Shown piece by piece: positions 41,542 through 44,429 of a DNA stretch of 56,192 bases. Where the stretch lies: NCBI GenBank assembly GCA_021797995.1, contig JAJZYR010000004.1, positions 1 to 56,192 on the forward strand. The letters run 5' to 3'. Source of the stretch: Candidatus Micrarchaeota archaeon (lineage in GTDB: Archaea; Micrarchaeota; Micrarchaeia; Micrarchaeales; CABMGC01). Position numbers and translations under genes: made by a program. The stretch's first letter is position 1, and the number at the start of each line of letters is the position of its first letter. The notes under the pieces were generated by a model. The model was not told the DNA's origin, did no database searches, and was given only the letters and a program-made list of their open reading frames with translations.

Positions 41542-41633
41542 AAAAGGCTCTTAAAGATCGGAAATGCATAATGAAATGTTAATCTAGGTGAAAGAATGTA
41601 CGAAGGCACAAGATCAGCTCCATAAGCCGTTAG

Positions 41634-42533
41634 TTACCTTAAGTAATCCACTCTCGAGGTTTCTGTTAGTTTACCAAACTTGAGTAATGTTTCATACTGC
41701 CTCGAATAACCACTATCGAATTTTCTTAAACATAATTCACCTAAAATCAAGTCTGTTGCTATAGCTATTTTTATAGATGCCCCTTTAATTCTCGATAATT
41801 CCCTGCTTACTGCTTCTAAATCTTTATTATCAAAAACAGGGCGAAATAAAATAACCCCATATGGTGTTCCTATGTCTCCAACAAGAGAATAATAATTGGC
41901 TAAATTAGTATCCTCCTTTATAATATTGACCAAAAAATCTGGTCGCGACTCATCGAATTTATTAGTATCATCGATAACTAAGAATATAATTCCGATATAT
42001 TTTACAGGTAAGCTCCTCATAGTAATAGTTACGCGCTGAAGCAATCCATTCTCCAGCATTTTATGATATGAATACTGGGCCCTTCCTTCATCAAATCTAT
42101 ATTTCTTATCTATATCTGTAAAATTCATTATACCATTAGTATTCAATTCTCGAAGTACTGCAAATTCTCTCTTCAGAAGGCCTTTCTCATTACCGCTTAA
42201 TTTTTCTTCAAATAAGTTTTCTTCTTTAACAGTGGCCTCGGACAAAGTTTCTATTAGCTCATCGCGCAAAGGTACAAAATTATAATACTCAAAAAATGTA
42301 GTTATGTACCATTCTGAGCGATGATGATAAAACTTGCCCTTTCGTCTAAGATCCCTGCACAAAAAGCTAAGTTCTTGATTTGTTCTTGCAATCACATACA
42401 ACAAAAGATGATATTCTGAGCCAGTAAGCTTCATAACTAATTGAACTCTAGATTCAGATCCCACAGTTTCTTTTATTTCTTCTATAGAGGGTATCCTATC
42501 TAAAAACTTTATGAAAATAAGGAATTTTAGGTA
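41634..42533 (-). pseudogene. Lrp/AsnC-like multi-domain wHTH protein, AT-rich, probably N-terminally truncated
   Basis: wHTH segment LRELNTNG..NF.DID.......AQY.Y.K..E.G.L.R; AsnC-like KLTGSEYHLLLYV. Composition switches to AT-rich near 42535; no convincing start. Confidence 0.5.
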
Positions 42534-42728
42534 GATGGCACGACTTATACCCCAACCCTCTATTATTGAACCCGCCATCAGGACCATATCCAATCATCTG
42601 CGCGTGAGGGCTCCCACCCGCGCGCATTATACTTGCTGGAAGTGCAGCGAGAGCTACGGTGCTCCTGGAGACTTTCTCTGGCACATACGATACTGTGTTG
42701 TATGAGATACATACGGGTGGGTGGAGAG

Positions 42729-43007
42729 ATGAAGAAAGAGAATGCAAACGTTAGAAGGAGCTATGGAAGGACGTGCAGCATCTTTTTTGTAAGGCCAAAG
42801 AGCATGGCCAATGCGCACGAGGCCGCGAAGAGGTTCATGGGCATAAGGCACGTGAAGGGGGTCTTTGTCACCGAGGGAAAGTACGGCTTCGTTGTAAGGA
42901 CGATGGATCTCGGATTGGAGGAGGAGAAGGAAGTGGGCAGGATTATGTCAAAGGCTGCGGGACCGGGCCTTGCGAAGATGACATGCTACTACTCATACAG
43001 GAAGTGA
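42729..43007 (+). CDS. Small AsnC/Lrp ligand-binding-like domain protein
   Basis: FFVRP...EAAKRFM.I.HV..VFVTEGKYGFVV, a ferredoxin-like beta-alpha-beta pattern; GGAG upstream of ATG 42729. Confidence 0.55.
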   Translation: MKKENANVRRSYGRTCSIFFVRPKSMANAHEAAKRFMGIRHVKGVFVTEGKYGFVVRTMDLGLEEEKEVGRIMSKAAGPGLAKMTCYYSYRK

Positions 43008-43121
43008 GCGGAATGCGAAGACGAAAGGATAATAGTAGCGGGACGTGGCGGGATCAAAGCCCACCTTCCTATGACTGCCGGCCGGCATAGGCTTTTTATA
43101 CCTGTTTGGTAATATAAGAGC

Positions 43122-43280
43122 ATGGAGACCAAGAGGGTAGTTATAGAGGTGCCCAAAGAGGCAAACACAAGGGAGGTCAAGGCCATAGTCAAGAGGATAT
43201 TCTCGTTTAATGTGAGGAAGTATTATGGCAGATCGAGGAACTTTCCGAAGGTACGCGTTAGATGGCAATTGTCTGTTTAG
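43122..43280 (+). CDS. Putative VapB-type antitoxin
   Basis: Manual translation METKRVVIEVPKEANTREVKAIVKRIFSFNVRKYYGRSRNFPKVRVRWQLSV (52 aa); overlaps the vapC start; TTTATA upstream. Confidence 0.65.
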   Translation: METKRVVIEVPKEANTREVKAIVKRIFSFNVRKYYGRSRNFPKVRVRWQLSV

Positions 43281-43657
43281 ACACGGACGTGCTGGTTGAC
43301 ATAATACGTGCAGACGAACCTCTCTCCAGGCTAAGGGGCATAAGGTATCTTGGCTCATGTACCACGATAATCACGCTTCTGGAGCTCTACTACGGGGCCT
43401 TTAAGTCTGGCAAGCAAGACGATCTGGCACTAATCGAGTTCCTGAAGAATGACATAGTGGTGCTTGAATTATCAGAAGGCGATGTCAAACTCGCTGGAAA
43501 GATCATGGCTGACCTTGACAAGAAAGGCCTTAAAGTGGATTTCAGAGATGTCGTGATAGGGGCGATATGCATAAACGAGAAGATAACCCTGATGACAAGA
43601 AATATAAAGCATTTTAAGAGGATGGAATCGTACGGTCTTTCTATAACAACAGTATAA
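43262..43657 (+). CDS. vapC: VapC PIN-domain toxin
   Basis: CLDTDVLVD, ITLLELYYG, DFRDVVIGA, LMTRNIKHF. Confidence 0.92.
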   Translation: MAIVCLDTDVLVDIIRADEPLSRLRGIRYLGSCTTIITLLELYYGAFKSGKQDDLALIEFLKNDIVVLELSEGDVKLAGKIMADLDKKGLKVDFRDVVIGAICINEKITLMTRNIKHFKRMESYGLSITTV

Positions 43658-43766
43658 GCCCCAGATACTGTGTTGTTTATTTATCAATTGGCGCGGCAGG
43701 GTTCTACCGAGGGCTGTAGGCCCGGGCCTTGCAAAGATGACATGCTACTACTCATACAGGAAGTGA

Positions 43767-44429
43767 TCAGAACGAGTACCTGGGCTCCTGGATCTCCTTC
43801 AGTAACACTGCACTCTTCAGGCTGCTCTTGAAGAGCCTCTCCGCGGCATCAGACTTTTCCTTTCCAAGCACCGCCTTGTAATGCATGGGAATGGCCTGCT
43901 TCAGCACCATGCTCTTCGCAGCTTCTATCGCGTCGTTTACGTCCATCGTGTAGGTCCCGCTCATCGGAAGCAGTGCAATGTCCACCCTGAGCCCCCTCAT
44001 CTCATCTATGAAATCGGTATCTCCGGTATGGTAGAGAAGCCTTCCACCGTCCAGCTCGATGACATATCCTACCCACCCATTTGACCTGGGATGCTTGTCC
44101 AGCCTCTCCTTTACGTTGTTGTATGCAGGCATTGTGCTGAATCTTATGCCCAGTGCGCTGTACCTCTTATTTGGCTCCACGCCAGTGACTTTGCCCACCG
44201 GTATCTTGTCCGTGCTGTCTCTGGGCACGAATATCTCCGTATCCTTGTCCGCTATCTTCCTTATCGAATCAGGATGAAGATGGTCGAAGTGCGGGTGCGT
44301 TATCAAGATCAGGTCGGCATGCCCCTTCACTTCCCTCAGGTCGAACGGGTCTATGTAGACCTTCTTGCCATTAATCCTGAGAAGGAAGCTTGCATGTCCT
44401 ATCCAGTTTATGTCGTCCATCTCGCCCAT
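43767..44429 (-). CDS. Metallo-beta-lactamase-fold hydrolase
   Basis: WIGHASF, YIDPF, ITHPHFDHL, YHTGDT, IPMHY. Confidence 0.92.
   Translation of the reverse strand: MGEMDDINWIGHASFLLRINGKKVYIDPFDLREVKGHADLILITHPHFDHLHPDSIRKIADKDTEIFVPRDSTDKIPVGKVTGVEPNKRYSALGIRFSTMPAYNNVKERLDKHPRSNGWVGYVIELDGGRLLYHTGDTDFIDEMRGLRVDIALLPMSGTYTMDVNDAIEAAKSMVLKQAIPMHYKAVLGKEKSDAAERLFKSSLKSAVLLKEIQEPRYSF

What the first reader, a model, noticed from the sequence alone, without database searches (positions are those of the whole stretch)
42936..43766. vapBC mini-cassette bracketed by two versions of a protein gene's 3' end, with no integrase
Seen: the last 72 bp of the 42729-43007 gene recur 759 bp downstream. 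The final 45 bp differ by one base, and the first 27 bp diverge but keep the frame (GRIMSKAAG versus GRVLPRAVG, then PGLAKMTCYYSYRK-stop). Between the copies lie only a promoter, a 52-aa antitoxin candidate and vapC. Inference: a minimal toxin-antitoxin element that entered by recombination into the gene end, restoring the gene and displacing the old tail. It could excise as a 759-bp circle that is stabilised by addiction.
Basis: partly seen in the sequence, partly recalled or inferred. Interest (0 to 1): 0.7.

Follow-up and report, generated by a model that had tools for sequence, protein, structure and literature searches.

The report
Toxin-antitoxin pair between duplicated gene tails
In a tiny acid-mine archaeon, a two-gene toxin-antitoxin-type unit sits between two versions of a neighbouring gene's last 72 bases with no integrase of its own; it likely arrived by ordinary recombination, and about a quarter of the related toxin genes sampled in other genomes carry the same kind of scar.

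Summary
The repeat is real: 72 bp, 759 bp apart, 9 mismatches in the first 27 bp and 1 in the last 45. Contigs from other studies confirm it. Between the copies lie a TATA-like promoter, a conserved 52-aa partner of no known family, and a PIN-domain VapC.

The host gene is an accessory Lrp/AsnC-ligand-domain-like gene in an island that congeners lack. No empty allele or circle was seen in 8 runs. One silent site takes both letters in both copies across strains, so the copies likely exchange sequence.

Direct repeats bracket 14 of 56 PIN loci in the order (tRNA, 23S, IF-2 and parvulin ends), against 0 of 22 housekeeping loci, and 18 of 78 vapC loci outside the order. It works like 'insertion with long target duplication', described for restriction-modification genes. 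This scan has seen the same scar on other DNA many times.

Best reading (0.55): recombinase-free insertion at the gene end. Main rival (0.3): a collapsed second copy of the host module, favoured by a 13-bp remnant of the upstream gene. 'Old tail displaced' and 'addiction-stabilised circle' are unproven.

The parts
42936..43007 (+). Repeat copy 1: last 24 codons of the intact 92-aa gene
42729..43007 (+). Host gene (92 aa), Lrp/AsnC ligand-binding-domain-like; multi-copy accessory family of the lineage
   Evidence: 5 full copies in the genome; matches in 41 of 61 genomes; Atlas rank 2 is an AsnC_trans_reg cluster at 0.86, a lead only; a relative hits PF01037 at E 0.001, below cut-off
43008..43121 (+). 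Intergenic stretch with TATA-like box (43093-43100) 21 bp before the ATG; predicted promoter of the pair
   Evidence: sequence; similar T/A boxes upstream of the two closest relatives; no stable RNA fold
43122..43280 (+). 52-aa antitoxin candidate, overlapping vapC by 19 bp; no known antitoxin family
   Evidence: 64-77% identical to 3 relatives; 2 of them seen directly upstream of the closest vapC genes, the third on a contig of the same length as a close vapC; Pfam, NCBIfam and Atlas give only a weak L23 resemblance
43262..43657 (+). VapC-type PIN-domain protein, 131 aa
   Evidence: Pfam PF01850 E 8e-14; NCBIfam VapC models hit below their cut-offs; D7, E41, D96 and N114 invariant in 16 of 16 aligned relatives
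43664..43676 (+). 13-bp remnant identical to the 3' end of the upstream zinc-finger-like gene (42689-42701)
43680..43681 (.). Site of a polymorphic IS200/IS605-family insertion in some strains (absent from the window)
   Evidence: loose ends in runs X5 and X8 match 8 exact left ends and a 22-copy right-end motif in the genome; 5 of the 8 left ends lie 96 bp before an HTH_OrfB_IS605 match
43695..43766 (+). Repeat copy 2: promoterless in-frame tail; its stop codon abuts the stop of the convergent metallo-beta-lactamase-fold gene
42535..42705 (+). 56-aa zinc-finger-like gene (CxxC...HxxxC), usual upstream partner of the host gene
   Evidence: matches in 10 of 61 genomes, up to 82% identity; next to host-gene homologues in many loci
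41634..42548 (-). 5'-truncated, 33% GC Lrp-like regulator in a strain-variable slot; left part of the island
   Evidence: four paralogues seen in full are 461-485 aa; slot 41572-42533 replaced or absent in other strains

Best explanation
The 759-bp unit (predicted promoter, antitoxin candidate, vapC and a piece of the host gene's end) likely entered by a recombinase-free crossover in the last codons of the 92-aa gene, leaving the gene whole upstream and a spare, diverged tail downstream. Shown: the anatomy, the lack of a recombinase in the unit, the presence of RadA, and the recurrence of the scar around PIN genes at many unrelated gene ends. Inferred: the incoming DNA was a small circle or fragment from a relative carrying another allele of the gene end, and host RadA-type recombination did the joining. 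Also inferred: later exchange between the copies evened out the last 45 bp, and the unit can loop out through them. Untested: that VapC is toxic, that the partner neutralises it, and that this penalises loss of the unit.
For: 1. The 9 differences in copy 2 keep the frame and are mostly conservative, and R-A-V-G matches the family's usual AVGG/RAVG motif. So copy 2 comes from a working allele, not from neutral decay.
2. Same architecture at other protein ends: parvulin (57 bp, 91%, 723 bp apart), IF-2 (three copies) and bacterial tgt (77 bp, 96%, 784 bp apart).
3. Bracketing rate: 9 of 29 vapC-relative loci plus 5 of 27 PIN loci, against 0 of 22 housekeeping loci and 6 of 150 random windows of the own genome (Fisher p = 0.008 and 3e-5; kin are not independent).
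4. The anchors are varied: tRNA-Glu, -Arg, -Asp, 23S rRNA end, protein ends, and in the own genome also a gene's 5' end. This does not fit one site-specific enzyme.
5. None of 28 ORFs of 100 aa or more between the repeats of 17 loci hit a recombinase or transposase family; 8 had no hit at all.
6. The own genome (94.6% complete) has RadA, no resolvase match, and one tyrosine-recombinase match, which looks broken and lies beside tRNA-Leu.
7. The two closest vapBC pairs lie elsewhere: behind tRNA-His with a weak 21-bp duplicate (E 0.03), and at an unrelated site.
8. The silent site 42974/43733 is G/A in the window and in X1, X5 and X8, A/G in X11 and X12, and A/A in X10. This is what exchange between copies, or loop-out and re-entry, would give.
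Against: 1. No empty allele or circle junction in 8 laid runs: 7 cover the whole unit, 1 covers part. No match to the unit's body in 117 other genomes of the family. Two metagenome scans and one viral scan were empty.
2. All 5 database alleles of the host protein carry the copy-1 tail, so neither donor nor recipient allele is in hand.
3. The 13-bp remnant of the upstream gene just before copy 2 is not predicted by a simple tail duplication.
4. The same ksgA|MBL junction holds unrelated vapBC pairs in 2 of 8 congeners and a vapC remnant in a third, with no flanking repeat, so TA pairs also reach this spot without a duplication.
5. 42 of 56 PIN loci are not bracketed.
6. No ComEC domain was found in the genome, so the route of DNA entry is unknown.
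7. The A/G haplotypes come from one study and from contigs, not reads.
Confidence: 0.55

Rival explanations
1. Collapsed second module. The site once held two diverged copies of the zinc-finger plus 92-aa module with vapBC between them (a new module with vapBC arrived in front of an older one, or a longer duplication formed). Deletions cut the downstream copy to 13 bp of the first gene and 72 bp of the second, and gene conversion later evened out the last 45 bp. The 759-bp unit was then never a mobile entity in itself.
For: The 13-bp remnant lies in the right order before copy 2. The module is multi-copy and mosaic, with paralogous loci sharing 87-97% identical blocks. The island is visibly decaying and swapping: truncated regulator, variable slot. 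The first 27 bp are only 67% identical, more like a paralogue than a close donor.
Against: No longer version of copy 2 was found; the one longer spacer allele is an IS605-family insertion. None of the 29 host-gene loci from other genomes, 3.3 kb or shorter, holds two copies of the gene. Clean tail-only duplications bracket other vapBC pairs at single-copy genes, where no paralogue can be invoked.
Confidence: 0.3
2. Remnant of an integrase-driven element, or a unit moved by an integrase in trans. The repeats are attL and attR, and the larger element lost everything but its TA pair.
For: 6 of the 14 bracketed PIN loci use tRNA 3' ends, the classic integrase target. A broken tyrosine recombinase lies at tRNA-Leu in this genome. 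An earlier scan note (e1-2364875, not re-tested) reads the tRNA-Ala island of this genome that way.
Against: The target here is a fast-evolving accessory protein gene. There is no recombinase remnant in the 759 bp or in 17 analogous loci. Anchors differ widely in sequence and in length (21-168 bp). No relative of this VapC was found on viral contigs.
Confidence: 0.11
3. The repeat is an assembly artefact, or copy 2 is the old ksgA tail read in another frame.
For: In another frame the last 36 bp read like ksgA's C-terminal helix, in the register in which ksgA overlaps the MBL stop in one congener.
Against: Contigs from at least two other studies carry both versions in place. The core matches ksgA tails no better than background: 20 of 45 against a mean of 19.5, and 9-16 of 45 in register.
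Confidence: 0.02

Closest known systems
Insertion with long target duplication of restriction-modification genes (Nobusato et al. 2000, PMID 11163967, seen only as a citation; Furuta, Abe and Kobayashi 2010, PMC2853133, passages and Discussion read)
   Same: Small selfish or addiction-type gene unit, no integrase or transposase, flanked by direct repeats longer than 30 bp that are unique in the genome and can overlap a gene's 3' end. That paper also hypothesises amplification and release through the repeats, with release unproven.
   Different: Cargo is a vapBC-type pair, not restriction-modification genes ('toxin' has 0 hits in that paper's main text). The host is an archaeon (no archaeal case survived their filter). 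The copies are two diverged alleles. No empty-site genome is in hand here.
Type II VapBC toxin-antitoxin systems (PIN-domain VapC)
   Same: Small upstream ORF overlapping a PIN-domain gene with the acidic active-site residues kept.
   Different: The 52-aa partner matches no antitoxin family in Pfam, NCBIfam or the Atlas. Binding and toxicity are untested.
C-terminal displacement and orphan arrays of rhs/CDI loci (recalled; named in earlier scan notes, no paper read)
   Same: A new segment enters at a gene's 3' region and leaves a promoterless in-frame tail downstream.
   Different: Here the incoming cargo is a separate operon, not a new toxin domain fused to the gene, and the shared core is the very end of the gene.
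tRNA-targeted integrative elements with attL/attR (established knowledge)
   Same: A duplicated gene 3' end restores the target gene; several sister cassettes use tRNA ends.
   Different: No integrase in the unit, protein-coding target, and a diverged rather than identical repeat.

Membership tests
Insertion with long target duplication (Furuta 2010 criteria) | Target duplication longer than 30 bp, unique in the genome | tested here: met
   72 bp; no third copy in the assembly
Insertion with long target duplication (Furuta 2010 criteria) | Insert under 20 kb with no mobility gene | tested here: met
   759-bp unit, two ORFs, neither a recombinase
Insertion with long target duplication (Furuta 2010 criteria) | A related genome with the single, uninterrupted target | tested here: inconclusive
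   None in 8 runs or 117 family genomes; congeners lack the whole island, so they do not hold the target
Insertion with long target duplication (Furuta 2010 criteria) | Restriction and modification genes as cargo | tested here: not met
   Cargo is a PIN gene and a small partner. It works like this class but is not filed as an RM member.
VapBC type II toxin-antitoxin system | PIN-domain toxin with conserved acidic residues | tested here: met
VapBC type II toxin-antitoxin system | Small upstream gene, coupled and co-conserved | tested here: met
   19-bp overlap; same pair in L043/L136 and L044/L137
VapBC type II toxin-antitoxin system | Antitoxin with a known DNA-binding fold (AbrB, RHH, HTH, Phd) | tested here: inconclusive
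   No family hit; only a weak L23 resemblance below cut-off; not folded
VapBC type II toxin-antitoxin system | Antitoxin binds and neutralises an active RNase toxin | not testable with these tools
Integrase-encoding integrative element | Own tyrosine or serine recombinase next to an att site | tested here: not met
   None in the unit; genome-wide one apparently broken tyrosine recombinase on another contig and no resolvase

The most novel reading that the evidence does not exclude
Toxin-antitoxin pairs are mobile elements in their own right. A 0.6-1.2 kb unit made of the pair plus a short copy of a gene end loops out and re-enters by host recombination alone, hops between gene ends and between cells as a minicircle, and this accounts for roughly a quarter of chromosomal vapBC loci in Micrarchaeota and in many bacteria. 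The swapped G/A and A/G haplotypes at this locus are the footprint of such a cycle.
Probability: 0.2. Interest if true: 0.7.

Novelty: new variant of a known kind. Interest (0 to 1): 0.4.

Why it matters
How chromosomal toxin-antitoxin pairs move when no plasmid, phage or transposon carries them is usually left to 'remnant of a mobile element'. If these units enter and leave through short copies of gene ends using only host recombination, that gives a simple route of gene gain in small-genome archaea whose assemblies show almost no recombinases. It would extend to TA pairs and to archaea a mechanism so far described for bacterial restriction-modification genes, where the release step has no experimental evidence (PMC2853133, Discussion). 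This locus is a compact test case: a defined 759-bp product, an excision that would leave the host protein unchanged, and a silent marker that tells the copies apart. On its own it is one more example of a scar that this scan has already met many times.

Tried and rejected
Empty allele or circle: none seen. No joint across 43007-43767 and no back-joint was listed in 8 of the 13 runs found (one joint row and many pieces were not shown). Where 31 or more bases of the copies are identical (window-type alleles, e.g. X1), the repeat collapses into one contig, so such forms could not show as joints. Depths are flat in X1 and X9-X12. They are uneven in X5 (36.6, 48.3, 56.3) and X8 (22.2, 31.3, 30) in a way that fits neither a circle nor an empty allele cleanly: inconclusive. 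No RNA holder listed.

Longer spacer allele as a fuller second paralogue: rejected, it is an IS200/IS605-family insertion.

Copy 2 as the old ksgA tail: rejected.

Diversity-generating retroelement: rejected by eye; the mismatches are not confined to adenines of either copy.

Structured RNA in or near the unit: none.

Viral scan with the VapC alignment: empty.

The profile search of protein representatives and the complex prediction were not available, so the deeper family of the host gene and VapB-VapC binding stay open.

Literature searches with no paper holding all terms: Micrarchaeota + toxin-antitoxin + direct repeat; Micrarchaeota + genomic island + tRNA + integrase; toxin-antitoxin + circular intermediate + excision + without integrase. 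Searches returned listings, none of whose titles or abstract starts describe this for TA pairs; of these only PMC3874152 was opened (passages), and it names long target duplication for RM systems only. PMC3457768 (passages) applies the term to rRNA genes. The library omits most subscription papers and no supplements were read.

Full report
1. Observation. The repeat is as described: 42936-43007 and 43695-43766, 759 bp apart, with 9 mismatches in the first 27 bp and 1 silent mismatch (42974/43733) in the last 45. It has no third copy in the 945-kb, 32-contig assembly. Contigs from public runs of other studies carry both versions in place, so it is not an assembly artefact. The lineage is Micrarchaeota: the second-closest vapC relative lies on a record titled Ca. 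Micrarchaeota that belongs to a genome of the same order.

2. The unit. After copy 1 come 114 bp with a TATA-like box 21 bp before the ATG (sequence; promoter function inferred), a 52-aa ORF, and a 131-aa PIN protein overlapping it by 19 bp. The PIN protein keeps D7, E41, D96 and N114 in all 16 aligned relatives. The small ORF is 64-77% identical to three relatives and precedes the two closest vapC genes in the same way, but matches no antitoxin family. GC is 44-45% against about 52% for the flanks. The 37-bp spacer before copy 2 holds a 13-bp exact copy of the end of the zinc-finger-like gene upstream of the host gene. Some strains have an IS200/IS605-family element inserted at 43680/43681.

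3. The host. The 92-aa gene is not a core gene. It belongs to a multi-copy family (5 full copies here, matches in 41 of 61 genomes) that resembles the Lrp/AsnC ligand-binding domain (leads only). It usually sits divergent from a large Lrp-like regulator, often behind a small zinc-finger-like gene. Here the whole block lies between ksgA and a metallo-beta-lactamase-fold gene. Of 10 congeners with that gene, 8 have ksgA in the same locus: 5 with the two genes touching, 2 with an unrelated vapBC between them, and 1 with a vapC remnant, none with a flanking repeat. So the junction is an insertion hot spot, and the congeners are not empty-site alleles of the repeat.

4. Strain variation. Eight of 13 holder runs were laid. 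Seven cover the whole unit and one covers part. None shows an empty or circular junction, with the limits given under Tried and rejected. The silent site reads G/A (copy 1/copy 2) in the window, X1, X5 and X8; A/G in X11 and X12; A/A in X10; X9 is mixed. Each letter lies within 12 bases of copy-specific sequence, so contig phasing should hold (inference). Both letters in both copies point to exchange between them. Loop-out on one side of the site and re-entry on the other would give exactly the A/G form; two conversions would too. Loop-out through the last 45 bp would leave the host protein unchanged.

5. The pattern elsewhere. Direct repeats of 20 bp or more (blastn E up to 1e-3) bracket the PIN gene in 9 of 29 vapC-relative loci and 5 of 27 PIN-family loci from other genomes of the order; two own-genome loci and one duplicate were dropped from the second set. 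The controls gave 0 of 22 housekeeping loci and 6 of 150 random own-genome windows (Fisher p = 0.008 and 3e-5, overstated because kin are related). Of the 14, six use tRNA 3' ends, one the 23S rRNA end (L045), two protein ends (IF-2, parvulin), and five are unassigned. None of 28 enclosed ORFs from 17 loci hit a recombinase family. In the own genome 3 of 8 PIN loci are bracketed. A scan listed 23 repeat pairs, several at tRNA ends and one trio at a gene's 5' end, around small cargo (cargo other than PIN was not run against a library). Outside the order, 18 of 78 vapC loci are bracketed; there is no matched control for that set, and some repeats may be REP, attC or IS ends. One of them, tgt in L148, is a clean protein-tail case.

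6. Mechanism. Shown: anatomy, no recombinase in the unit, RadA present, no intact site-specific recombinase found in a 94.6% complete assembly, varied anchors, and the same vapBC family at other sites. Inferred: a single crossover between the chromosome and a small incoming circle or fragment bearing another allele of the gene end, then exchange between the copies (0.55). In that model only the part of copy 2 after the crossover is the old tail; the diverged 27 bp could be incoming. All 5 database alleles carry the copy-1 tail, so this cannot be settled. The main rival (0.3) is a collapsed second copy of the host module, which explains the 13-bp remnant and the low identity of the first 27 bp. 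An integrase remnant or trans-mobilised unit gets 0.11. Addiction, if real, would select for keeping the integrated unit; nothing here suggests that a circle replicates.

7. Relation to what is known. It works like insertion with long target duplication (PMC2853133: passages and Discussion read; Nobusato 2000 seen only as a citation). It meets the size and repeat criteria, fails the RM-cargo criterion and lacks the empty-site genome, so it is a variant, not a filed member. My searches found no paper describing this for TA pairs or for Micrarchaeota, within an incomplete library. Earlier notes of this scan report the same scar in Asgard archaea, CPR and other bacteria; they gave me the literature lead and were not re-tested.

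8. Verdict. A real and clean example of a known but poorly explained way of gaining genes, with two additions: TA cargo in an archaeon, and a strain-level hint that the copies still recombine. Mobility as a circle is not shown. Interest 0.4.

Noticed in passing
window 41572-42533: Strain-variable slot between ksgA and the zinc-finger-like gene. The window has a 5'-truncated 33% GC Lrp-like regulator; run X5 also has a 1,786-base alternative with its own variants of both flanks, and X10-X12 largely lack the window's version. Looks like allelic exchange through conserved flanks.
   Followed up: partly
G000 contigs C12, C15, C25, C28, C29, C30: Multi-copy module of a 461-485-aa Lrp-like regulator divergent from small ORFs and the 92-aa gene. 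Regulators are only 34-46% identical to the window's, while the small-ORF blocks are 87-97% identical at DNA level between loci. Found across the order. Function unexplained.
   Followed up: partly
G000:C28:16992-20627: Three diverged copies (85-88%) of a gene's 5' end; the last is the intact 251-aa gene, with a 430-aa ORF and a two-gene pair between the copies. Same scar, but at the start of a gene.
   Followed up: partly
L045, L046, L047 and G000:C12:26388-27204: TA pairs stacked at 737-806-bp spacing behind the 23S rRNA 3' end; the rRNA is shown by Rfam for L045 and L047.
   Followed up: partly
L053 (G194:C6): Array of at least four small cassettes (two small gene pairs, vapBC, a 258-aa ORF) separated by overlapping 28-45-bp repeats, no recombinase seen in 3.4 kb. 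Could be integron-like; not examined.
   Followed up: no
L078:1549-2084 and L025:214-1496: The same regulator modules in other genomes also carry duplications: the zinc-finger gene's last 70 bp around one small gene, and 78 bp just behind the 92-aa homologue around a vapBC-type pair.
   Followed up: partly
window 43680/43681 and many contig ends of G000: An active IS200/IS605-family element: 8 exact left ends, all after TTAT, a 22-copy right-end motif, 11 HTH_OrfB_IS605 and 4 Y1 transposase matches.
   Followed up: partly
window 43122-43280: The antitoxin candidate family has no library match and a basic, aromatic C-terminal half; it may be an undescribed VapB type.
   Followed up: partly
G000:C10:190-1000: An apparently frameshifted tyrosine recombinase directly behind tRNA-Leu; the only PF00589 match in the assembly.
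   Followed up: partly
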